Virus record (IMG/VR): IMGVR_UViG_3300032070_000613
Coordinates: 77,096 to 141,095 of that record
Reading direction: 5' to 3' (one strand)
Length of the DNA stretch: 64,000 nucleotides
From: a virus
The notes beneath the pieces were generated by a model, which saw only the letters and a list, made by a program, of their open reading frames with translations, searched no databases and was not told the DNA's origin. A program made the translations under genes and the position numbers. Shown piece by piece: positions 1,053-64,000 of this stretch. Every line of letters begins with the position of its first letter. Within the stretch, counting starts at the first letter, position 1.

Positions 1053-4000
1053 ATGGCTATCAATCAAGGTGAAAATGTATCGACGTCCTATGAGGGTAGT
1101 GGGTATGCTTTCGATAAAGTTTATTTTCAGCCTGGGAAGCCTATTCTCAGCTCTGAATTGAATTTATCACAGGAGCAGCTCGAGACACTGACTCAGAAAT
1201 CCACGGCGCATATGCCGTCCGGATGGCTCAGCTATCGTCCTATCTATACCGCCAAAGATCTCGGGAACAGTTTCTATACGCAGGACCCTGACGCTCCCAA
1301 GCCCGAGGTGGCTCTGGTGAATGGATGGCCTGTGTATGTCACGAATACCAATACTCCTTTAAAGCATATAAATAAAATATCGTTTGATGATAATGATCTC
1401 CGCTCCGGGTCTCGTGTGGATGGAGTGTTTCTGGAGGTATGGAGATCTCTCATATCTCCTCAGGATTCATCTGAGACAGTCGATGGTACAGTAAAACCCC
1501 AGCCGATAGTGAGAGTGAGTACTCTCAATAGTGTGTGGATCTACAATGAAAACATCGGGTGGTCGGTAGGAGAGAACGGTACTATTCTGAAAACCATCGA
1601 TGGAGGCAACAACTGGAAAACCATAAACACTCCCATCAATGTCAATTTCAAAAAAGTAAAATTTCTGGATTTGGATATAGGCTATGCCGTATCTGATAAA
1701 GGGCATATCATCAAGAGTGTGGATAGTGGTGAGTCCTGGTTTTCATTAGATACTCCTATCACGGATGATCTGAATGATTTGTATATCATAGATGCTCAAC
1801 ATGTCTGCGTGGTCGGCAATAATGGTACCATACTGCTGTCGATTGATGGTACGCATTTCAATTTGGTATCTCAGACCGCGGGTAACATTGATAATCTGTA
1901 TGGAGTGACTTTTTTTGATACCTCGGTGGGATGGACGGTGGGAGACAACGGTGCCCTACTGATGACGAAAGATGGGGGAAACTCCTGGCAGAAATATATC
2001 GTCAACGATTCATCTACCAGCACGGTAATCACCGAGAAACTGCTGTCTGTAGCTTTTTACAATCTGAATGACGGTATCATAGTGGGAGCCGATGGTCTGC
2101 TGCTGCGGTCTACCGACAGTGGATTCACGTGGGCTAATATGTCATCGAGGATATGGCATGATGGGTCATATCAGACTATACAGGAGATATTCCCGGGTAG
2201 CACTATAGATTTCAACAGAGTGTTTATCAGGGAAGAGTTTCCGATACGTTTTACTATCGCGGTATATCCTGACTCTAAGAATTTTTTCAAAAATCTGCTG
2301 TATAAGATATCTCCCACGAACTATCCGAACTCTCTGGTTTTGGAGTTCACGGGGACGCAGGATAATATCAACTACGTAAAAGTCCTCGATCTGGATAGCT
2401 ACGCTACCTCAGAAGCCCTACGGGATGCTATCAACAATCTGACGAGCGCCTATAGAGCGGACGACGCCTCGCTGCCTGATGTGCAGCGTCAGAAGGTGCG
2501 CGTATTCGAGGCCTCTATAGAATATGAATCTTTCTCCAAACCGTCTGATTTCCGGCCTACGTCGGGGAGTTTCTCCAGTATCAATCCTGCGCAGATATCT
2601 TTTTCCGTAGAGGATAAAGCATGGATAGCTGGCAGCAATGGAGTAGCTCTCGTCAGCAGCAACAGTGGATCTAAATGGGAGGTCCTCGACCTCAGCACGG
2701 GATATGATTTACAGGATGCGTATTTTGTATCGGATACCAAAGGATGGTTTTCGGGGGCCCAGGGCACTATCATAGGCTATGACGGTGGACTAGTCTCCCC
2801 CATAGAGACGCAGAGTACTGATCTGATCACCAGAGTGCAGGGTAGAATTTTCCCAGAGGGTAACGTACTCTCCATGGCTGAAGATTATTTGAAAGATAAT
2901 ATCATAGATCCTCAGGTGGGTGTAGAGACTACCAAGAGAGTGCAGATACAGTATAGGATCAGGATAGTCAGCGGTATAGATCCTTTTAATCATCCTGAGG
3001 CTGGGCTGGGGCATGACTACGTGTATAGTATGGGTCCTAGCACCAGTGTGACCTCCGCAGGTAACTATACCTTTACGAATATGGGTCAGGAGAATGGGGA
3101 CTATGGTCTCTGGCGTGCCCGGTGTCGGAGTACGTATGATGGGTATAGCTGGGCCATACCGATGTTTTTTGTTTCTCGCAGGAACTCAGGTGCTTTCAAT
3201 GTCGATAACAATATCAACGGGTCCACCTATTTTGATCTGAGTGCTATACGTCCTGATGGATTGACGTACGAGCAGATCACTGATGATGATGTGACTGACA
3301 TACGCAGGCAGGTGGTCATACAATCTTATAGTCATTTTCTGCAGAAAAATCTGGAGAAGCTGCTATCGAATAATCTCAAAACTAGTCTGAGTGATAAAGA
3401 TCAACGGGGTCTGCAGTATGGTACCTCTATTTTGATGGCTGATCAATATACCGGTACTACAGATATTGAAAATCTCGTCCGAGGAGGAGTGTCTTCAGCC
3501 GCGGTCATCGTGGAGGATCAGAAACTGCTGGACCCGAATATACAGATCACGGAGGCGGAGCTGACATTCGGACCGCGGGATAACGGTCTGTATCATAATG
3601 ACCCGGCATATTATAGTGCCTATGTAGTGAGGGACGGTACGCCTACAGCGGAGCCTGTGCAAGGTACGTGGGAAGGGCTGGGCACGAATACGGTCATTTT
3701 TCATATAGCTGATAATTTCACTCCAGCGGGTGGGACTCTGGATGGGATACAGTATCAGGTGACTGCTCATTACATTGATTACTCTCGTGTAGGTCTCACG
3801 AGAGTGCCGCAGACTCCCATATCCGTGAAGTATCAAGCGGATCCTGTAAACTCTGCTCAGACCTATTATTTCAATGGTGTGGATGCTCGTGGTGATAGGC
3901 GGATACTCGAGTATCTGACTGAGAATGTGTCTGGGTATATGGATTATACGTATATCTATTCCGCCAAAACGGTACTCGATAATGTACAGGATCAGAATCT

Positions 4001-22969: not shown

Positions 22970-23190
22970 AAATGACGTTGTGGGAGTCTAGGGAGCTTAT
23001 TCAATAAAATGAATATGCAGACGTTACAACCAAAGTTCAAGAACGTACCTACGGATGCTTCACTAGTCCGTAGCTCTACAACTCTACCATTAAACAGGAA
23101 CGAAAGCGCCAGTGTGGTAGAGAAAGTACTGAGTTGTAACAATCCCGAAGTGAATCTACGGAAACAGGTATCCGGACTTACAGTCATTGT
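22948..23190 (+). ncRNA. omegaRNA scaffold (copy 1), boundaries approximate
   Basis: Structured ~240 nt region directly upstream of the PLMP codons (CTACGGATGCTTCACTAGTCCGTAG hairpin, TAAACAG...CAGTG, AACAATCCCGAAG), conserved in three copies. Confidence 0.8.
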
Positions 23191-47369: not shown

Positions 47370-48532
47370 CCGATGAAATAGACATCAGTGACATCCTGGA
47401 AGATGAGGTGGAGGAGAGTCCCGCTCAATCCCAAGTGACTCCGGCTATCCCCGACTCTCCAGACAGCCCCGCCCGGAAAGAAATAGCGCAGCTGAGAGAT
47501 CGTCTGAGAGTATCTCACGAGCACTGCCGTGATCTTTTCGTGGATATGAGGACTGTGGACTACATAGCTACTCCCGATGACTCCTATATCGAATTTCTGG
47601 ATAAAAATTATTACGACAAAAGGCTGTATTTTAAAGTGGACCCTCAGAGACCGAATGATCCTAAAATCATAATAGCCCAGCAGCAATTTTGCAAGCTGCT
47701 AGGTATCCCCTATAAATTTTTTGCCGCTAACAGGCCCTCCCTGAAAATGAACATCGTGAAGACCTGGCAGGCAGGCCTGACCGCGGATGAGAGTAAAGCC
47801 CAGAGCGTCCTCAAAATTCGGGAGTCTAAAGATTGCTCTATCATCAGAGCATTCATACCAGTAACTAAATGCTGCGTACCTCTCTATGAACTCATAGACA
47901 TAATCCTGAATGGCGTGACTATCCCTCTCACAATGGAGTTCGTGTACGGGGATGAAAGGGATGATTTGATATTACACGCCCGTTTTCTTTTTAACAAAGA
48001 ATATACGGTACTGGGATCTAAGGTGTGCGTGGGATTTTCTTTGATAGCGTCTGAGCTGGATGCCTCCCCATTCATAATAGAAATCTTTTTACATGATAAA
48101 GAGTTTGCAACTTCGTATATTAGTACATATGGCGGGGACCCCTTTTTCAAGTCTAAATATGACGGTATCAAAGCGGATCAAATTAAAGATCTGATCCCTA
48201 AAATGTTAAACAGAATCGATAGTGAAGCTCCCGAAATGATAGAAAGGGTAGAGAAGAAAGTATCCGATACTATGCAGAGCGGATTTTTTTGTGCGGAAAC
48301 TGAGTGCGTATCGCTACTGAAAGCTAAGGGTATCAACGGCAAAGTGAAAAAAGCGGTATATCATCAGATTACTGAGTGCCAGGATAAAATCAAAACTCCC
48401 TGGGATATTGCTCGTCACGTGGGTCTGGTGGCTAAAGATTTAGATTCGATAAAGAGGCTCGCTGTAGAGCGGGCTATAGGTCAATATTTGCGACTAACTT
48501 TTTCTAACCCTACAACGTCATATAAAAAATGA
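47366..48532 (+). CDS. Hypothetical protein (DUF932-like); last 8 residues supplied by the IscB element
   Basis: QQFCKLLGIPYKF motif; C-terminal NPTTSYKK is encoded inside the element's left end. Confidence 0.5.
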   Translation: MTDEIDISDILEDEVEESPAQSQVTPAIPDSPDSPARKEIAQLRDRLRVSHEHCRDLFVDMRTVDYIATPDDSYIEFLDKNYYDKRLYFKVDPQRPNDPKIIIAQQQFCKLLGIPYKFFAANRPSLKMNIVKTWQAGLTADESKAQSVLKIRESKDCSIIRAFIPVTKCCVPLYELIDIILNGVTIPLTMEFVYGDERDDLILHARFLFNKEYTVLGSKVCVGFSLIASELDASPFIIEIFLHDKEFATSYISTYGGDPFFKSKYDGIKADQIKDLIPKMLNRIDSEAPEMIERVEKKVSDTMQSGFFCAETECVSLLKAKGINGKVKKAVYHQITECQDKIKTPWDIARHVGLVAKDLDSIKRLAVERAIGQYLRLTFSNPTTSYKK

Positions 48533-48750
48533 CGATGTAGGAGTCTAGGGAGCTTATTCAGTAACATGAATATGCAGACGTTACAACCAAAGTTCAAGAA
48601 CGTACCTACGGATGCTTCACTAGTCTGTAGCTCTACAACTCTACCATTAAACAGGAACGAAAGCGCCAGTGTGGTAGAGAAAGTACTGAGTTGTAACAAT
48701 CCCGAAGTGAATCTTCACTGGAAACGGGTATCCGGACTTAAAGTCATTGT
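48504..48750 (+). ncRNA. omegaRNA scaffold (copy 2), boundaries approximate
   Basis: Near-identical to the 22948-23190 scaffold; directly upstream of PLMP. Confidence 0.8.
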
Positions 48751-58632: not shown

Positions 58633-59580
58633 ATGAAGAAGAGATCTGATTTTAACGATTTAACAGGAAAAGTTTTTGGTGATCTTACTGTAGTATCTTT
58701 GGCGTTCACAAAAAATAGAGTTTCTCACTGGAACTGTTTGTGTAAATGTGGTAGAAATAGGATAGTAAGATCTAGGTATTTAACACAGGGTATTCACACT
58801 TCTTGTGTAGTATGCTCAAAAATTAAAAATGTCGGGCATCACTATGTGGATCTGACTGGGAAACGCTTTCACCGGTTAATAGTTCAGCATATATCCCATT
58901 ATGACTTATTAAAAAGGACATACTATTGGAAATGTCTGTGCGATTGTGGTAAAGAAGTAATTATTATTGGTAATAGTTTAAAAACGAATAGAACAAAGTC
59001 GTGTGGGTGCCTTGTTTCCGAGAAAGCTAAGAATAGACTTTTTACAAATCTTATAGGAAAGCGCTTCGGTAGATTGTTTGTTATTGGTCATGATGGTATG
59101 AAAAAAACTTTTAGATATTGGGAGTGTGTTTGTGATTGTGGAAATAAGACAAAAGTAAAAGCAAGGGATTTAAGGTCAGGGCATACACAGTCTTGTGGGT
59201 GTTTAAGAAAAGAAAGATCTTCAGAAGGCTGTAGAAATAGAAGATTACCGGATAACGAAGCTGGCTTTAATAGGGTATATCGGGAATACCGTAACAAAAA
59301 TGCAGAAAGGCGAGATCTGTCGTTTGAGTTAACAAAAGAACAGTTTAGAGAATTGACTCAAAAGCCCTGTCACTATTGTGGTTTTATGCATTCAAAAAAC
59401 CAGTTAGGTTTTTTATATAATGGTTTAGATAGAGTAGACAATAAAAAAGGTTATACAATAGATAACGTAGTTCCTTGCTGCTTTACCTGTAACATATCAA
59501 AAGCTCGTATGACAGTAGAAGAATTCTTATCTTGGATAGATCGAGTGCACGTGTATCAGAGCCAAAAACAGAACAAATAG
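58633..59580 (+). CDS. HNH (homing-type) endonuclease with three N-terminal Cys-rich repeats
   Basis: Three (D/N)LxGKxFxxL.V...WxCxCxCG...SC repeats; CHYCG...NGLDRVDNKKGYTIDNVVPCCFTCN. Confidence 0.8.
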   Translation: MKKRSDFNDLTGKVFGDLTVVSLAFTKNRVSHWNCLCKCGRNRIVRSRYLTQGIHTSCVVCSKIKNVGHHYVDLTGKRFHRLIVQHISHYDLLKRTYYWKCLCDCGKEVIIIGNSLKTNRTKSCGCLVSEKAKNRLFTNLIGKRFGRLFVIGHDGMKKTFRYWECVCDCGNKTKVKARDLRSGHTQSCGCLRKERSSEGCRNRRLPDNEAGFNRVYREYRNKNAERRDLSFELTKEQFRELTQKPCHYCGFMHSKNQLGFLYNGLDRVDNKKGYTIDNVVPCCFTCNISKARMTVEEFLSWIDRVHVYQSQKQNK

Positions 59581-59585
59581 CTATT

Positions 59586-60128
59586 TCATTTGACTGACCG
59601 ACATCCATAGATACATTCTGCCTGGTTCGTCAGCTCCAATATTATATCTTTAGCTTTATTCTCTTCTTCCCACTGACTAGAAGCTACGTTGTAGAAGAAA
59701 AAATGTAGGCGATATGTTTTAATGCTCGGGCATCCTCTGCCCTGGATATAGCTCTCGACACCGACCTGTATATTGTCTTTTCCCATGGCGTCTTTAGTCC
59801 TGAATACACTATAGCTAACATTGTAGATATATATAACGTCAGTTTTCTTGCTAGGGACAACATCTACGCAGAATAGTGGGTATAGCGTGATAGGTATGAT
59901 TTTAAAAACATATGTAGAGCCTACATGATCTCTGTTATAAACAAATTGCTGCTTTTTATACATTTTGATGAGGGTGTCTATTATCGGACGAAATTTAGTT
60001 TCATCATATGTTTTCTGGGTATCGTTGGAGAGCTCAGATTTAATCGTAGTTTTAGATAGTATGGGGGCAGACTGGGCGCAGGCATTGATGGATAGCATCA
60101 ATATCATTAAAATAGCTGTTTTTAACAT
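59586..60128 (-). CDS. Secreted/lipoprotein-like hypothetical protein
   Basis: N-terminal MLKTAILMILMLSINAC; GGGGA RBS on the minus strand; the only convincing minus-strand gene. Confidence 0.6.
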   Translation of the reverse strand: MLKTAILMILMLSINACAQSAPILSKTTIKSELSNDTQKTYDETKFRPIIDTLIKMYKKQQFVYNRDHVGSTYVFKIIPITLYPLFCVDVVPSKKTDVIYIYNVSYSVFRTKDAMGKDNIQVGVESYIQGRGCPSIKTYRLHFFFYNVASSQWEEENKAKDIILELTNQAECIYGCRSVK

Positions 60129-60261
60129 AGGATCCCCCTTTCTATATCATGGATTTTCCTATAAATAGATTATCATTTTTATGCGTCAAAAAGATATTTA
60201 ATATAGATCGTCAAATTTTACTGCTAAAAATAATAATATTTTTGATAAATAAAGAAAAAAC

Positions 60262-60290
60262 TTGACATTTATTTGAAAATGTCGTATATT
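60262..60290 (+). promoter_or_regulatory. Sigma70-type promoter driving the ncRNA cluster
   Basis: TTGACA-17 nt-TATATT with an A/T-rich upstream element. Confidence 0.8.
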
Positions 60291-60295
60291 AGAGT

Positions 60296-60307
60296 AGCTC
60301 TTTGAAA
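60296..60307 (+). promoter_or_regulatory. boxA-like antitermination site
   Basis: AGCTCTTTGAAA matches rrn-type boxA (GYTCTTTRAMA) just after the predicted TSS; a second copy GTTCTTTGATAA lies at 60917-60928. Confidence 0.55.
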
Positions 60308-60331
60308 TAGTTATTTTAGTAAGCACAAGCA

Positions 60332-60593
60332 GTAACCCTACAACGTCACTTAATAAATGACGCTGTGGGAGTCTAGGGAGCTTATTCAGTAAAATGAATA
60401 TGCAGACGTTACAACCAGAGTTCAAGAACGTACCTACGGATGCTTCACTAGTCCGTAGCTCTACAAATCTCTCTTTAAACAGACTGGAAACGGTCAGTGA
60501 GAGAGGTATAGTACTGGGCTGTAACAATCCCGAAGTGAATCTACGGAAACAGGTATCCGGACTTATAGTCACTGTACCTGTATATGAGTCCTT
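60332..60593 (+). ncRNA. Orphan omegaRNA (no IscB ORF)
   Basis: Homologous to the other two scaffolds; homology stops just before the PLMP codons; no right end. Confidence 0.8.
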
Positions 60594-60623
60594 ATTTTAA
60601 AATAAAGATTCATTTTAAAATTT

Positions 60624-60737
60624 GATAGTCTAATCTTTTATCGTAATGTGCCTACATCAGGCACACACCCCATGAGCCTTAGTTTAAAGCCGGGTTCATG
60701 GGGGTGTGCCGCACCTTAAAGCACACACAACTCGGAT
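60624..60737 (+). ncRNA. Y-RNA-like unit 1 (box A 60633-60657, long hairpin 60660-60710, box B 60719-60737)
   Basis: Shared box A/box B scaffold; ~19 bp GC-rich hairpin cargo. Confidence 0.6.
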
Positions 60738-60767
60738 AAAGTCATCATCCGTAAAAACGGATGATCC

Positions 60768-60902
60768 ACATCCTTTACCGCAAGGGCTTACATGATCTCA
60801 TAAATCATCGCCGGGCCTTAGAGCCCGGCACCCAGAGAGGCGACCGCCCTCAGTGGCGGAAACGTGCTCTGGAAAGCACTCGCAACTTGGATGTAGATTA
60901 TC
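60768..60902 (+). ncRNA. Y-RNA-like unit 2 (CAU anticodon arm plus GC-rich hairpins)
   Basis: Box A 60770-60793, box B 60874-60892; ATGAT-CTCATAA-ATCAT arm. Confidence 0.65.
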
Positions 60903-60941
60903 TTTTCGAATATGTCGTTCTTTGATAATATGAATAGAAGT

Positions 60942-61079
60942 TAAAAATTTTCATCCTTTATCGTATGGGCTTACATGGATAATGTTTTTATCTCATAAAT
61001 AAAAGCTAGATCGTTCAAACCGATCAAATCCCGTAAGGGATGGTTACTCAAGCACTTACAACTCGGATGAAAATTTTTA
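60942..61079 (+). ncRNA. Y-RNA-like unit 3 (CAU anticodon arm, T-arm, GNRA hairpin)
   Basis: Perfect 15 bp closing stem; box A 60953-60976, box B 61050-61068. Confidence 0.7.
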
Positions 61080-61084
61080 TATAG

Positions 61085-61252
61085 GTCGCTCTTTGATAGA
61101 GCGTGGATTGAAACAAGTCCAGCAAAGCGAACCAAAAACTGCAGCCGAGACTCGCGCATGTTCTTTTTGTCACTCTTTTAGAGAGCGTGGATTGAAACAA
61201 ATCAAGAAGAAAGCACCAAAAGTTGCATCTGAGATTTGCACACGTTTTTTAA
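61085..61252 (+). CRISPR. Two type I-C-like repeats (61085-61114, 61169-61198), each followed by a related ~54 nt sequence; no cas genes in window
   Basis: GTCGCTCTTTGATAGAGCGTGGATTGAAAC and GTCACTCTTTTAGAGAGCGTGGATTGAAAC; internal hairpin and GGATTGAAAC end typical of I-C repeats. Confidence 0.7.
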
Positions 61253-61257
61253 ATCGA

Positions 61258-61411
61258 AATTAAAAATGTATCTTTTACAGTGTGAACTTACATTTAGTCT
61301 TGGTTCGACTCCAAGTTAGCCCACGAAAGTAGGCTAGTAGTTCAACGGTAGAACAGTTGCCTATTAAGCAATCAAAAAAATAGTACGCACGACTCAGATA
61401 CATTTTTAATT
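61258..61411 (+). ncRNA. YrlA-like Y RNA unit 4 with circularly permuted tRNA domain
   Basis: Perfect 16 bp closing stem; T arm, GAAA-capped acceptor, D arm and anticodon arm in permuted order; near a Ro60-like gene. Confidence 0.8.
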
Positions 61412-61414
61412 CAT

Positions 61415-61450
61415 AAGCCGAGGAAGTTTAGCAGCTCTCTCGGCTTTTTT
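61415..61450 (+). terminator. Intrinsic terminator of the ncRNA cluster
   Basis: AAGCCGAG...CTCGGCTT stem plus T-tract. Confidence 0.7.
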
Positions 61451-61456
61451 ATTTGC

Positions 61457-61485
61457 TTGATAAGTTTATTATAAAAAAGTATATT
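61457..61485 (+). promoter_or_regulatory. Sigma70-type promoter (probably leaderless mRNA starting near ATG 61492)
   Basis: TTGATA-17 nt-TATATT, 6 nt before the ATG. Confidence 0.55.
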
Positions 61486-61491
61486 GAAGGC

Positions 61492-61827
61492 ATGGAAATA
61501 AGATATACCATAGGTGATTTGATAGCTTTAGGAAAAATTATTTCTAAAAAACCATGGGTTTTGAATAATACCTCATATGCGGATGAATATGATCTCATGC
61601 TGATGGATCTTAAAAAATCTTTACAAATGTCAGAAACAGCGAATAGAATTGCTAATGATAAGTTAGCACGTTGGATACAAAAAAATTTTCAATGGCACGG
61701 TCCGAATAATTTTAAAAGTCAAATAGTGCTTTTTATATTTCATACGTCGTTAGAGGAAGTGCCCTTGAATATCAATGACGAGCTATTGGCACCTTTCGCT
61801 AACTGGCGTCTCCGGATAGCCAAATAA
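61492..61827 (+). CDS. Hypothetical protein
   Basis: ORF ending SLEEVPLNINDE...WRLRIAK; own promoter. Confidence 0.55.
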   Translation: MEIRYTIGDLIALGKIISKKPWVLNNTSYADEYDLMLMDLKKSLQMSETANRIANDKLARWIQKNFQWHGPNNFKSQIVLFIFHTSLEEVPLNINDELLAPFANWRLRIAK

Positions 61828-61904
61828 TTTTTTTAAGATATGCTTTAAAAAGGTATAACGAAATAGTATATTGTATAACCGACAACCAAAAACAGGAGGT
61901 ATGT

Positions 61905-62162
61905 ATGGCAGGCGTACATGTAGTTTATAACGGTCGTAACGAGGACATCGCATTCGAGCAGCTCTTCACGCCCGAGCGCCGTGCCGGAGTTGGCATCGCG
62001 GATGGGATTGTACTCTCGTCCTCAAACGTGACTGAGGACCAGGTGAAACGCGCCTTGTCTCAGTATTATGATGTCGGTGTGGGAGAATTTGACGATCATT
62101 TCGTCGAACTCAACCCAAACGGTAACGTGACCGTCCGTCCGAATACTCCTTTCGGTGGGTAA
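61905..62162 (+). CDS. Small putative ubiquitin-like (beta-grasp) protein ending in Gly-Gly
   Basis: Strong AGGAGG RBS; 85 aa; beta-beta-alpha-beta-beta-like pattern; C-terminus RPNTPFGG. Confidence 0.55.
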   Translation: MAGVHVVYNGRNEDIAFEQLFTPERRAGVGIADGIVLSSSNVTEDQVKRALSQYYDVGVGEFDDHFVELNPNGNVTVRPNTPFGG

Positions 62163-62166
62163 ACTC

Positions 62167-62193
62167 GGGCGCTCTATAAAAAGAGCGCCCTTT
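62167..62193 (+). terminator. Hairpin / weak terminator between the Ubl-like and Ro60-like genes
   Basis: GGGCGCTCT/AGAGCGCCC 9 bp stem plus TTT. Confidence 0.5.
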
Positions 62194-62223
62194 ACTAAAT
62201 AATATTTATATTGGAGGCTTGAA

Positions 62224-63810
62224 ATGGCTACCGCTACTCAGAAAAATACAGCCGCTCCGGAAAAAGAAGAAGACCTGCGGGTAAAAATCCTCAACACCTT
62301 CATGACGTGTGACCACCGAAATACCGAAATGTCAATGAAAGTGCACCAAGAGGTCCAGACGAAGGATCCCCTGTTCTATGCGCACCTCGCATGCTGGTAC
62401 CGTAAGAACGGCGAACTCCGAGATGTCAATGAGGTATTCTCGGCGCTGCTCAGTGTGGATCCATATCTCCCTAACCGTGAGGTAGGCCTGGCGCTTTTCC
62501 GGGAGCAGGCCCCATTCATGAAACGGCGCATCCTGGGTTTCATTAAGGGCAAGAAAGTCAAAGTCCGTGAGAAGACTGGTAAAAAAATCAAAATCGGTAA
62601 GAAGACCGTGGATGAAGTCAAAATCACCGAGAAAAAGGTAGGTCTCGATAAATCCCTGCCGACTGCGTTCAAGACGGAGGTCACGCGATATCTACGCTGG
62701 CTGGAGTCCAATACGGAGAAGTTTGATACGGTCGCTATCCGTAATGCTAAAGATCTAAAGGCACTCTATGCCTCTAACGGTCTGCAGATCAAACCATCGC
62801 CGCGGGCGCAGGCTATCCTATTCGATAAGGAGTATCCGAAAGATAGTAAGCTGAATATTTTCGAGAAAATCAGCACAGCAAAAACTCCCGAAGAAGCTGC
62901 GAAGCTCATTGTGGAGAACAAAGTCCCGTATACCGTCGCTGTGGGTTTGGTGGAAAAAATCACTCCATCTATCCTGGTGGCGCTCATCGATGCTATGAGT
63001 CCTCAGGAGTTGATCAACAATGTCGCCTCTCTGGAAGAAAAGGGAGCGATGGACAATCCGGACGTCAAAAAGCTGATCCAGGCTAAACTGGGGAAAGCTG
63101 AGAAATCCAAAACAGTCGCCACTTTGAAATCCAAAACAGCGAAAGCTACTGGTCGTATCAAGGATGAAGAAGTCCTCAAGCAGCTTGATAAGGTAGCTGA
63201 TGAGCAGGTCAAAAAGAGTGGTACTATTAAAGTCCCTACTGCGATCTTTATTGATCAGTCTGGTTCTATGGATAAAGCGATCGATGTAGGTAAGCGGTGT
63301 GCGGCGCTGGTGTCTGGTGTCACTACCGCCGATCTACATGTAGTTTGTTTTAATACGGCGGCTACCCCGATCACGTCTACGGAGAAGACTCTGACTGGTT
63401 GGGAGAGGGCGTTTGCGCCTATTCATGCCAATGGGGGTACGTCTATTGGGTGTGCCCTGGATTATCTGATGCGGCGTGGGCATGCGGTGGAGCAGCTCGT
63501 GGTTATTACGGATGAGCTAGAGAATAGCGCTCCGTTTTTCACAGATGTTTTTGCTAAGTATAAGGAGCAGGCCAAAGCCACTCCGCACGTTGTGATCATC
63601 AATGTCAGTGCGACGGCGCATAGCTATAGTGATCAGATTCTTCATGAGAGTTTGGATAAAGCGAAGATTACATATGATGTATATAAGCCCGCGAATTCAG
63701 ATTATTACGGGCTGCCGGGTTTAGTGACGTTACTATCTCGTAAGTCCAAACTGGATCTTGTGTATGAAATTCTGGATACGCCTTTGCTGGTCCGGAGGGA
63801 TTTTCGATAG
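62224..63810 (+). CDS. Ro60/TROVE-like RNA-binding protein with C-terminal vWA (MIDAS) domain
   Basis: N-terminal DPLFYAHLACWYRKNGELRD (TROVE-like), helical basic middle, IDQSGSM / GGTSIG / VITDELEN MIDAS motifs; GGAGG RBS. Confidence 0.75.
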   Translation: MATATQKNTAAPEKEEDLRVKILNTFMTCDHRNTEMSMKVHQEVQTKDPLFYAHLACWYRKNGELRDVNEVFSALLSVDPYLPNREVGLALFREQAPFMKRRILGFIKGKKVKVREKTGKKIKIGKKTVDEVKITEKKVGLDKSLPTAFKTEVTRYLRWLESNTEKFDTVAIRNAKDLKALYASNGLQIKPSPRAQAILFDKEYPKDSKLNIFEKISTAKTPEEAAKLIVENKVPYTVAVGLVEKITPSILVALIDAMSPQELINNVASLEEKGAMDNPDVKKLIQAKLGKAEKSKTVATLKSKTAKATGRIKDEEVLKQLDKVADEQVKKSGTIKVPTAIFIDQSGSMDKAIDVGKRCAALVSGVTTADLHVVCFNTAATPITSTEKTLTGWERAFAPIHANGGTSIGCALDYLMRRGHAVEQLVVITDELENSAPFFTDVFAKYKEQAKATPHVVIINVSATAHSYSDQILHESLDKAKITYDVYKPANSDYYGLPGLVTLLSRKSKLDLVYEILDTPLLVRRDFR

Positions 63811-63930
63811 TCGTGCCAGTAATGTGAGTGGCTGTATGTGTTTATTAAGAAAAAAGTTAGACAAGCGTATTACGTACAATCATACGTACAATCAGTAGTT
63901 GGTGGAAATAAACTTTTCTTTGGAGGTTAT

Positions 63931-64000
63931 ATGTTTGCCGAATTTGACAAGGTGATTAGGTGCCTTGCGTTGGAGTTACCCGAGTCCGTACATGCCGATG
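63931..64000 (+). CDS. Start of an ORF running off the window
   Basis: GGAGG RBS then ATG TTT GCC..., open to the window end. Confidence 0.45.
   Translation, partial: MFAEFDKVIRCLALELPESVHAD

What the first reader, a model, noticed from the sequence alone, without database searches (positions are those of the whole stretch)
61258..61411. Complete circularly permuted tRNA inside unit 4, keeping an anticodon arm
Seen, in order: T arm CTTGG-TTCGACT-CCAAG (61299-61315); acceptor-like TTAGCCCAC-GAAA-GTAGGCTAG (61316-61337); TA; D arm GTTC-AACGGTA-GAAC (61340-61354); A; anticodon arm GTTGC-CTATTAA-GCAAT (61356-61372). Elbow nucleotides (D-loop GG, T-loop TTCGA, A15/U48) are intact, the break is in the variable loop, and there is no CCA. 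Established: YrlA has the same T-acceptor-D order, but as I recall its Ro-binding stem takes the place of the anticodon arm. Here a full arm with ATT (an Asn-like loop, normally GTT) is kept. Inference: an unchargeable whole-tRNA mimic, or a permuted tRNA gene matured by ligation.
Basis: partly seen in the sequence, partly recalled or inferred. Interest (0 to 1): 0.8.

Follow-up and report, generated by a model that had tools for sequence, protein, structure and literature searches.

The report
Phage Y RNA carrying whole tRNA mimic
A very large phage encodes, next to its Ro60-like protein gene, a small RNA whose business end is a complete but rearranged and capped tRNA look-alike, anticodon arm included. 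That extends the known tRNA mimicry of bacterial Y RNAs from the tRNA "elbow" to the whole molecule.

Summary
Window 61258-61411 folds (z = -6.0) into a 16-bp basal stem, a conserved internal loop and upper helix, and a five-way junction. The junction carries, in order, a T arm, a GAAA-capped 7+2-bp acceptor-like hairpin, a D arm and a 5-bp/7-nt anticodon arm (loop CUAUUAA).

It is the last of four tandem Y-RNA-like units, followed by a terminator. It lies 0.8 kb upstream of a 528-aa gene whose predicted fold is Ro60.

The closest orthologue (L016, Ro 83% identical) keeps all loops but has three compensatory double changes in the anticodon stem. Of 18 permuted modules in the near phage clade found without reference to that arm, 8 have a perfect hairpin exactly one base after the D arm and 4 more have 4 of 5 pairs. 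In more distant loci the count is 2 of 32. The 15-48 Levitt pair covaries. After in-silico re-permutation ARAGORN calls all 14 such modules tRNAs.

Most likely this is a Ro60-bound, unchargeable whole-tRNA mimic: a new variant of YrlA-type Y RNAs in which the Ro stem enters at the variable-loop position. YrlA itself lacks an anticodon loop. Maturation into a working tRNA is unlikely.

The same scan has already noted the surrounding Ro60-linked RNA array on this window.

The parts
61258..61273 (+). Basal stem, 5' arm (pairs with 61396-61411)
   Evidence: 16-nt perfect inverted repeat I3; in the MFE fold. Orthologue L016 has a different sequence but still pairs.
61274..61298 (+). 5' scaffold strand ('box A'). 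It consists of internal loop UUUACA, upper-helix strand GUGUG-A-ACU (61280-61288), then UACAUUUAGU. The conserved CUUACAU (61287-61293) spans the last two upper-helix bases and the start of that linker. The linker ends in U48.
   Evidence: Repeat family D2 shared by units 2-4. Nearly identical in L016. The YUAY element corresponds to the conserved YUAY at the start of the V region of YrlA (PMC4201824). U48 covaries with position 15.
61299..61315 (+). T arm, CTTGG-TTCGACT-CCAAG
   Evidence: 100% paired, with 4 of 5 pairs showing double changes across 14 homologues.
61316..61337 (+). Acceptor-like hairpin: 7 bp (A1.C72 mismatch) + 2 bp + GAAA tetraloop; no CCA
   Evidence: L016 keeps the AC-GAAA-GU cap with compensated stem changes; L018 has 7 bp + GCAA.
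61338..61354 (+). U8 A9 and D arm GTTC-AACGGTA-GAAC (A14, A15, G18 G19, A21)
61355..61372 (+). A26 and anticodon arm GTTGC-CTATTAA-GCAAT; U33 61362, anticodon AUU 61363-61365, A37 61366
   Evidence: The L016 stem is CTTAT/ATAAG with the same loop. The helix is 95.7% paired with 5 of 5 pairs showing double changes. In the unbiased tally, 8 perfect + 4 near-perfect of 18.
61373..61395 (+). A-rich linker CAAAAAAAU, upper-helix strand AGU-A-CGCAC, internal loop GACUC ('box B', 3' scaffold strand)
   Evidence: Aligns without gaps to box B of units 1-3 (family D3). Conserved in L016/L018.
61396..61411 (+). Basal stem, 3' arm
61415..61452 (+). Intrinsic terminator closing the RNA array
   Evidence: Hairpin -15.9 kcal/mol, z = -4.4, followed by a U run. 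An equivalent hairpin + U run follows the L016 orthologue.
60624..61252 (+). Context: units 1-3 of the same scaffold with other cargo, and two 82-nt repeats
   Evidence: Repeat families D1-D5 and inverted repeats I5, I21, I22; sequence.
62224..63810 (+). Ro60/Rsr-like gene (528 aa, TROVE-like HEAT ring + vWA)
   Evidence: AF2 model pLDDT 80.6. The 12 best Foldseek PDB hits are all Ro60/Rsr/phage phiLo Ro60 over the full length, E 7.5e-11 to 1.8e-9, TM 0.51-0.61. Weak vWA_Ro60 and TROVE sequence hits.

Best explanation
Unit 4 is a Y RNA of a huge phage.

Inferred course of events: it is transcribed as the last RNA of an RNA-only array that ends at the terminator at 61415-61452. It is probably cut out at its 16-bp basal stem. 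The phage Ro60-like protein probably holds it through the conserved internal loop and upper helix (boxes A and B).

Shown from sequence and covariation: its distal module is a complete, circularly permuted cloverleaf that should fold into the tRNA L-shape. It comprises a T arm, an acceptor stem closed by a GNRA tetraloop, a D arm and an anticodon arm. The scaffold enters where the variable arm of a tRNA would be.

Inferred function: because the acceptor end is capped and has no CCA, the RNA cannot be charged. It acts as a whole-tRNA mimic that lets the Ro60 particle bind, recruit or titrate a protein that reads tRNA shape and also the anticodon loop. The conserved loop is CUAUUAA, a tRNA-Asn loop with G34 replaced by A. 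The partner is unknown. Candidates are host tRNA-targeting nucleases, modification enzymes or PNPase.
For: - Architecture and statistics.
- Ro60 fold of the gene 0.8 kb downstream on the same strand.
- Four units share one scaffold directly upstream of that gene.
- Partial YrlA match (26.3 bits, model positions 17-92) through T, acceptor and D.
- The orthologue L016 keeps box A, box B and all three loops, while the basal stem, acceptor stem and anticodon stem change with compensation.
- The Levitt pair 15-48 covaries (UA 10, CG 4) although it was not used for selection.
- The anticodon hairpin is enriched in the near clade (12 of 18 with at least 4 of 5 pairs, 8 perfect), against control offsets of 0-1 perfect.
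- The YrlA-style closing stem is at chance.
- GNRA or UNCG caps sit on the acceptor stem in the three closest relatives and several others.
- The CUAUUAA loop recurs on different stems in L005, L007 and L040.
- Complete relatives have ordinary tRNA arrays, including tRNA-Asn(GTT), elsewhere.
- Literature: YrlA Y RNAs are tRNA mimics bound by Rsr, and phage Ro60 binds phage Y-like RNAs and host PNPase (PMC4201824, 10.1101/312249, PMC12135203).
Against: - No binding, expression or probing data exist.
- The bacterial Ro-binding motif GNCGAAN0-1G is absent from unit 4, and its box A is the most divergent of the four units (65% to the reference copy).
- The Rfam YrlA score is far below gathering (26.3 vs 69).
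- In one complete relative (G002), units of the same kind lie in a tRNA gene array about 230 kb from the Ro gene, so linkage to Ro60 is not obligatory.
- The set used for the covariation count (A2) was picked by a scanner that required at least 4 of 5 anticodon-stem pairs. Only the orthologue comparison, the Levitt pair and the tally are free of that bias.
- The effector is unknown.
Confidence: 0.7

Rival explanations
1. Tandem-unit processing scaffold without Ro60. On this view the conserved stems and boxes are recognition and cleavage sites (for example RNase III-type stems) that release tRNA-like RNAs from polycistronic transcripts. The tRNA mimic then acts on its own, for instance as a free decoy, and its proximity to the Ro60-like gene is only operon neighbourhood.
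For: The perfect basal stems are 15-16 bp long. In G002 the same kind of unit sits among ordinary tRNA genes far from the Ro gene. The known Ro-binding motif GNCGAA is not conserved in this clade.
Against: The arrays lie directly upstream of the Ro60-like gene, on the same strand, in the window and in most loci retrieved through that protein. That retrieval is biased towards such loci. Boxes A and B are conserved in sequence while neighbouring stems drift, as expected of a protein-binding site. The 3' box ACUYG/ACUCR resembles the 3' strand next to the classical-looking YrlA modules of the distant loci, which score 30-41 bits on the YrlA model.
Confidence: 0.12
2. Permuted tRNA gene that is matured into a working tRNA. 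Either the scaffold is excised and the variable-loop ends are ligated (RtcB-type) and the acceptor loop is opened, or the acceptor loop is cut by RNase P so that a two-piece tRNA held together by the scaffold is CCA-tailed and charged.
For: The cloverleaf is complete, and ARAGORN accepts the re-permuted sequence. M. smegmatis YrlA with a 7-bp acceptor stem is cut by RNase P and receives CCA in vivo (PMC4201824). Some relatives have NCCA right after the 7-bp acceptor strand (L036, L048, L056, G002). RtcB lies 12-15 kb from the Ro gene in two relatives.
Against: In unit 4 and its orthologue the acceptor helix continues for 2 more bp into a GAAA tetraloop and has no CCA. AUU is not a normal decoding anticodon, and A34 is common among these cargos. 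The flanks form a long stem with a 6x5 internal loop, not a bulge-helix-bulge motif. RtcB is absent from two complete relatives. Relatives have a normal tRNA-Asn(GTT).
Confidence: 0.07
3. Decaying remnant of two tandem tRNA genes (3' part of one, 5' part of the next) with no function of its own.
For: A model of T, D and anticodon arms alone also hits junctions between adjacent ordinary tRNA genes. Sim and Wolin's origin model derives YrlA from dimeric tRNA transcripts (cited in 10.1101/312249).
Against: The two acceptor strands pair with each other under a tetraloop. Compensatory changes occur in every stem between the window and L016 while the loops stay identical. The Levitt pair covaries. 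The unit is embedded in the conserved scaffold and followed by a conserved terminator.
Confidence: 0.03

Closest known systems
YrlA-type bacterial and phage Y RNAs (Rfam RF02553; Chen et al. 2014, PMC4201824; structure 10.1101/312249)
   Same: Encoded just upstream of a Ro60/Rsr gene on the same strand, several Y RNAs per locus. T arm, then closed acceptor-like hairpin, then D arm. tRNA elbow nucleotides, UA linker at positions 8-9 and covarying 15-48 Levitt pair. Conserved YUAY before the T arm. No free CCA.
   Different: YrlA has no anticodon loop: its anticodon-stem equivalent is the main stem leading to the Ro60 site, and many YrlAs have a V hairpin. Here a closed 5-bp/7-nt anticodon arm follows the D arm and the main stem enters at the variable-loop position through 9-10-nt linkers. 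There is no V hairpin and the GNCGAAN0-1G motif is absent. The Rfam score is 26.3 bits against a gathering score of 69. The partner protein is only 11-16% identical to the solved Ro60 structures in the structural alignments.
Deinococcus radiodurans Yrn1 (PMC4201824)
   Same: A Y RNA modelled with a T arm and a possible anticodon-like arm with a 5-bp stem; it tethers Rsr to PNPase.
   Different: Yrn1 is in the unpermuted order, with the Ro stem at the acceptor position, a 6-nt 'anticodon' loop and no full D arm. Unit 4 is permuted and has canonical D and anticodon arms. Unpermuted relatives of unit 4 with full tRNA cargo exist in sister phages.
Circularly permuted tRNA genes of Cyanidioschyzon merolae and some archaea (own knowledge; reviewed in PMC4090602)
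   Same: The 3' half (T arm, acceptor 3' strand) is encoded upstream of the 5' half (acceptor 5' strand, D and anticodon arms), joined through the acceptor ends.
   Different: Those genes are matured through a bulge-helix-bulge motif, a circular intermediate, RNase P/Z cuts and CCA addition, and they carry needed anticodons. Unit 4 has a tetraloop-capped acceptor, no BHB motif, a bacterial-virus setting, anticodon AUU and a Y-RNA scaffold.
Phage-encoded tRNAs that evade or neutralise tRNA-targeting defences (PMC10264068, PMC11555353)
   Same: Phage-borne tRNA-shaped RNAs whose anticodon loops differ from host tRNAs; possible interplay with anticodon nucleases.
   Different: Those are ordinary chargeable tRNAs that replace cleaved host tRNAs. 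Unit 4 cannot be charged and is mounted on a Ro60-type scaffold.

Membership tests
YrlA Y RNA (RF02553 / Chen et al. 2014) | Encoded within about 4 kb of a Ro60/TROVE gene on the same strand | tested here: met
   Unit 4 is at 61258-61411 (+). The gene at 62224-63810 (+) has a Ro60 fold.
YrlA Y RNA (RF02553 / Chen et al. 2014) | T stem-loop, then closed acceptor-like stem-loop, then D stem-loop, with tRNA elbow nucleotides and a covarying Levitt pair | tested here: met
   Levitt pair UA 10 / CG 4 across 14 homologues.
YrlA Y RNA (RF02553 / Chen et al. 2014) | No anticodon loop: the stem at the anticodon position continues into the Ro60-binding module | tested here: not met
   A closed anticodon hairpin is present at 61356-61372 and conserved. 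The YrlA-style closing stem is paired in 40% of cells against 36.6% in shuffles.
YrlA Y RNA (RF02553 / Chen et al. 2014) | GNCGAAN0-1G motif in the 5' strand (putative Rsr site) | tested here: not met
   Unit 4 has ACAGUGUG at the aligned place. Units 1-3 have CG-N-AA-like variants.
YrlA Y RNA (RF02553 / Chen et al. 2014) | Score at or above Rfam's gathering threshold (69 bits) | tested here: not met
   26.3 bits, model positions 17-92. Classical-looking YrlA modules in distant loci also reach only 24.5-41 bits, most of them 30-41, so this test is weak.
YrlA Y RNA (RF02553 / Chen et al. 2014) | Bound by Ro60/Rsr | not testable with these tools
   Needs EMSA or RIP.
tRNA (RF00005 / ARAGORN) | Contiguous cloverleaf in the order acceptor-D-anticodon-variable-T-acceptor | tested here: not met
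   ARAGORN finds none in the window. RF00005 gives 24.6 bits against 29, through the D and anticodon arms only.
tRNA (RF00005 / ARAGORN) | All four arms and conserved core nucleotides present (cloverleaf after re-permutation) | tested here: met
   ARAGORN calls the re-permuted unit 4, and all 13 other re-permuted homologues, as tRNAs.
tRNA (RF00005 / ARAGORN) | Free acceptor ends with CCA encoded or addable | tested here: not met
   The acceptor helix is extended by 2 bp and closed by GAAA, with no CCA. The cap is conserved in L016.
Circularly permuted tRNA genes (C. merolae type) | 3' half upstream of 5' half | tested here: met
Circularly permuted tRNA genes (C. merolae type) | Bulge-helix-bulge motif formed by the flanks for endonuclease cutting and circularisation | tested here: not met
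   The flanks form a 16-bp stem, a 6x5 internal loop and an 8-bp helix with a 1x1 mismatch.
Circularly permuted tRNA genes (C. merolae type) | Mature, ligated, CCA-tailed tRNA detectable | not testable with these tools
   Needs RNA from infected cells or an expression host.

The most novel reading that the evidence does not exclude
Huge phages carry a modular library of Ro60-scaffolded whole-tRNA look-alikes. The modules are permuted or unpermuted, capped or CCA-bearing, and their anticodon loops are swappable and often carry A34 or read stop codons. Capped ones such as unit 4 (a tRNA-Asn loop with G34 changed to A) would act as uncleavable decoys or sensors for host anticodon nucleases or other anticodon-reading proteins. 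CCA-bearing relatives could be cut by RNase P into two-piece, chargeable tRNAs joined through a giant 'variable arm'.
Probability: 0.2. Interest if true: 0.85.

Novelty: new variant of a known kind. Interest (0 to 1): 0.64.

Why it matters
Y RNAs that mimic tRNA are known, but the described ones copy only the elbow, acceptor and D/T region and explicitly lack an anticodon loop. A conserved Y-type RNA that displays a whole tRNA, with the scaffold attached at the variable-arm position, has three consequences.

- It widens the set of possible partners to proteins that read anticodon loops: anticodon nucleases, synthetases and modification enzymes.
- It gives a concrete handle for finding the still unknown effector of YrlA-type RNAs, by comparing pull-downs with and without the anticodon arm, or with A34G.
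- It looks like the intermediate predicted by the model that YrlA arose from dimeric tRNA transcripts.

It also shows that the divergent, unannotated Ro60-like proteins of huge phages come with their own RNA partners.

Tried and rejected
- nhmmer with unit 4 against the related loci found nothing useful. Homologues had to be found by a structural scanner.
- Megablast of 60000-64000 against phage genomes gave no match.
- A sequence search of the 528-aa protein against PDB gave none. The profile search gave only E = 0.13 to TROVE chains. The Ro60 call rests on the predicted fold.
- The search for related loci with the single protein in viral contigs found nothing. The alignment-based scans worked.
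- Covariance model R1 (T, D and anticodon pairs only) is not specific. In complete relatives it also hits junctions of adjacent ordinary tRNA genes, so I did not use it for a genome-wide tally.
- MAFFT does not keep the acceptor stems in register, so they were left out of the pair counts.
- An exact T-arm pattern scan of viral contigs returned only ordinary phage tRNA-Tyr genes and no further orthologues.
- BLAST of the 5' half against phage genomes gives only weak matches to annotated tRNA genes, best tRNA-Asn at 82% over 39 nt, E = 0.07. This is suggestive of tRNA ancestry, not evidence of identity.
- The YrlA-style closing stem was rejected.
- Searches for RtcB and a CCA-adding enzyme in the window's own record were empty. 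The record is only about 30% complete and ends 190 nt after the Ro gene, so this is uninformative.

Full report
**1. What is there**

The window is the last 64 kb of a 141-kb IMG/VR virus record that CheckV rates about 30% complete. Homologues of its genes sit on phage contigs of 210-512 kb. It is therefore a fragment of a huge phage.

- T arm 61299-61315.
- Acceptor-like hairpin 61316-61337.
- UA 61338-61339.
- D arm 61340-61354.
- A 61355.
- Anticodon arm 61356-61372 with loop CUAUUAA.

The acceptor hairpin has seven pairs counted from the T arm. The outermost equivalent (A1.C72) is a mismatch. Two further pairs and a GAAA tetraloop follow, and there is no CCA.

Folded alone, 61255-61414 gives a 16-bp basal stem (61258-61273 with 61396-61411). 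Above it is a 6x5 internal loop (UUUACA/GACUC) and an upper helix (GUGUG-A-ACU with AGU-A-CGCAC). A five-way junction carries the four tRNA arms. The linkers are 10 nt (UACAUUUAGU) and 9 nt (CAAAAAAAU). The energy is -42.6 kcal/mol, z = -6.0.

In 100 Markov simulations of the window the complete pattern never occurred.

**2. Context**

The unit is the fourth of four tandem units that share one scaffold: a 5' box of the type CAUCCUUUAYCG...GGGCUUACAU and a 3' box AAGCACNNACAACUYGGAUG. Two 82-nt repeats lie between units 3 and 4.

A strong promoter-like site lies at 60262-60290. A terminator hairpin with a U run follows unit 4 at 61415-61452.

The 528-aa gene at 62224-63810 lies 0.8 kb downstream on the same strand. 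It has only weak sequence hits to vWA_Ro60 and TROVE. Its AlphaFold model (pLDDT 80.6) matches Ro60 over its full length. The twelve best PDB matches are frog and human Ro60, D. radiodurans Rsr and the Ro60 of Thermus phage phiLo, with E 7.5e-11 to 1.8e-9 and TM 0.51-0.61.

Rfam's YrlA model matches 61285-61365 at 26.3 bits through T arm, acceptor hairpin and D arm. The tRNA model matches 61331-61413 at 24.6 bits through the D and anticodon arms. Both are below threshold.

**3. Is the anticodon arm real?**

Relatives of the Ro60-like protein were used to fetch 94 loci.

*The orthologue.* The closest, L016 (Ro 83% identical), has an orthologue of unit 4, again last before a terminator.
- Boxes A and B are nearly unchanged. 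The T arm, D arm, the GAAA cap with its two closing pairs and the anticodon loop are identical.
- The anticodon stem changes from GTTGC/GCAAT to CTTAT/ATAAG, three double compensatory changes.
- The basal and acceptor stems also change with compensation.
- Its MFE fold has the same five-way junction.

*The tally free of selection bias.* A scanner that asks only for T arm, acceptor pairing, D arm and a 3' box found 18 distinct permuted modules in the near clade.
- Eight have a perfect 5-bp stem with a 7-nt loop starting exactly one base after the D arm, and four more have 4 of 5 pairs.
- At control offsets 0-1 are perfect.
- In the 32 modules of more distant loci only two are perfect.

*Pair counts on 14 modules with the arm.*
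- The helix is 95.7% paired and all five pairs show double changes.
- The tertiary 15-48 Levitt pair, which played no part in selection, is U-A in ten and C-G in four.
- The alternative pairing that cmscan used to fit YrlA (CAUU with AGUU) is at chance, 40% against 36.6%.
- After in-silico re-permutation ARAGORN calls all 14 tRNAs, with anticodons att, att, tca, gct, gct, aag, gat, tga, gtt, aag, tga, tta, gta and aaa.

**4. What it is**

The published YrlA has the same T-acceptor-D order, a closed acceptor stem, tRNA tertiary pairs and a conserved YUAY before the T arm. However, it "lacks the anticodon loop", and its anticodon-stem equivalent leads to the Ro60 site (10.1101/312249; PMC4201824).

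Unit 4 keeps the shared features, including CUUACAU. After the D arm it adds a canonical anticodon arm and an A-rich linker. Topologically, the scaffold therefore enters between position 43 and the variable loop, where class II tRNAs carry their long variable arm.

It fails three YrlA criteria: no anticodon loop, the GNCGAA motif and the Rfam threshold. The last criterion is weak, because classical-looking YrlA modules in the distant loci also reach only 24.5-41 bits, most of them 30-41. I file it as a new variant of the YrlA kind, not as a member of RF02553.

**5. How it most likely works**

*Shown:* a conserved scaffold next to a Ro60-fold gene, a complete tRNA-shaped module under selection for pairing and for loop sequence, and a capped acceptor.

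*Inferred:* Ro60 binds boxes A and B, and the tRNA module is the effector end, as in YrlA and Yrn1. Phage phiLo Ro60 with its Y-like RNAs binds host PNPase (PMC12135203).

The following points argue for a mimic rather than a decoder:
- The cap is a stable tetraloop in the three closest relatives (GAAA, GAAA, GCAA) and in several others (UUCG, UACG).
- AUU is not a normal anticodon.
- The loop CUAUUAA recurs on four other stems, in permuted and unpermuted cargo (L016, L005, L007, L040).
- By my inspection, about a quarter of scaffold-borne cargos have A34. The ordinary tRNA arrays of the same phages have A34 almost only in Arg-ACG and contain tRNA-Asn(GTT).

The loop is the tRNA-Asn loop with G34 replaced by A. 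A decoy or sensor for anticodon-reading proteins is attractive, given that phage tRNAs are known to counter tRNA-targeting defences (PMC10264068, PMC11555353). This is untested.

**6. Rivals**

- *Maturation into a working tRNA.* This is disfavoured for unit 4 by the cap, the missing CCA, the absence of a bulge-helix-bulge motif and the anticodon. M. smegmatis YrlA is cut by RNase P and CCA-tailed (PMC4201824), and some relatives do carry NCCA after a 7-bp acceptor strand, so the idea deserves a test there.
- *A Ro60-independent processing scaffold.* This is kept at 0.12, because in G002 such units lie inside a tRNA gene array about 230 kb from the Ro gene.
- *A dead remnant of tandem tRNA genes.* The compensatory changes contradict this.

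**7. Novelty and limits**

Full-text searches found Y RNAs of mycobacteriophages, CcrColossus, phage G and phiLo, and ROT/TROVE proteins in jumbo phages. None described a Y RNA with a canonical anticodon arm or with the scaffold at the variable position. The library is incomplete: the 2020 Annual Review was not held.

No expression or binding data exist, and the host is unknown.

Earlier notes of this scan on the same window describe the array, its cargo hairpins, the CRISPR-like repeats and the RNA operon. They agree with the context found here.

Noticed in passing
L005:2983-3116; L016:1900-2030 and 2205-2340; many loci: Sister phages mount unpermuted, full tRNA-like cargo with an encoded CCA on the same scaffold (…GCUUACAU-tRNA-CCA-AAA…AGCA…ACUYG). 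RF00005 scores them 42-57 bits. About a quarter have A34 anticodons (att, atc, aat, aag, aca, aac), and stop-reading anticodons (tca, tta, cta) occur.
   Followed up: partly
L096:200-900 (- strand) = G002:C1:182700-183400: In the complete 467-kb relative, scaffold units with a permuted tRNA plus anticodon arm are interspersed with ordinary tRNA genes about 230 kb from its Ro gene. One has a V hairpin, ACCA after the acceptor strand and anticodon CUA.
   Followed up: partly
window 61085-61250 (also L008 ~2680, L031 ~3330-3480): Two 82-nt tandem repeats each begin with a CRISPR-repeat-like 30-mer ending GTGGATTGAAAC. The 'spacers' are 77% alike. Similar repeat-like units occur inside the arrays of other phages.
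   Followed up: no
window 60359-60544, 22974-23159, 48492-48717: Three HEARO/IscB omega-RNA matches score above Rfam gathering. The one at 60359 heads the RNA array behind a near-consensus promoter-like site at 60262-60290.
   Followed up: no
window 60942-61079 (unit 3): The cargo of unit 3 contains a T-arm-like hairpin GATCG-TTCAAAC-CGATC followed by ATCCC-GTAA-GGGAT, without D or anticodon arms. The four units therefore carry graded fragments of tRNA.
   Followed up: no
window 61905-62162: An 85-aa ORF directly upstream of the Ro60-like gene ends in ...NTPFGG-stop. It has no Pfam or PHROG hit.
   Followed up: no
G001:C1:413221-415512; G004:C1:193767-196052: RtcB matches are split over an 801-806-aa open frame (possible insertion or intein) 12-15 kb downstream of the Ro gene in two relatives. 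RtcB is absent in two other complete relatives.
   Followed up: no
window 58633-59580: A 315-aa HNH endonuclease-like ORF (phrog_374, E 4.9e-51) lies just upstream of the RNA array.
   Followed up: no
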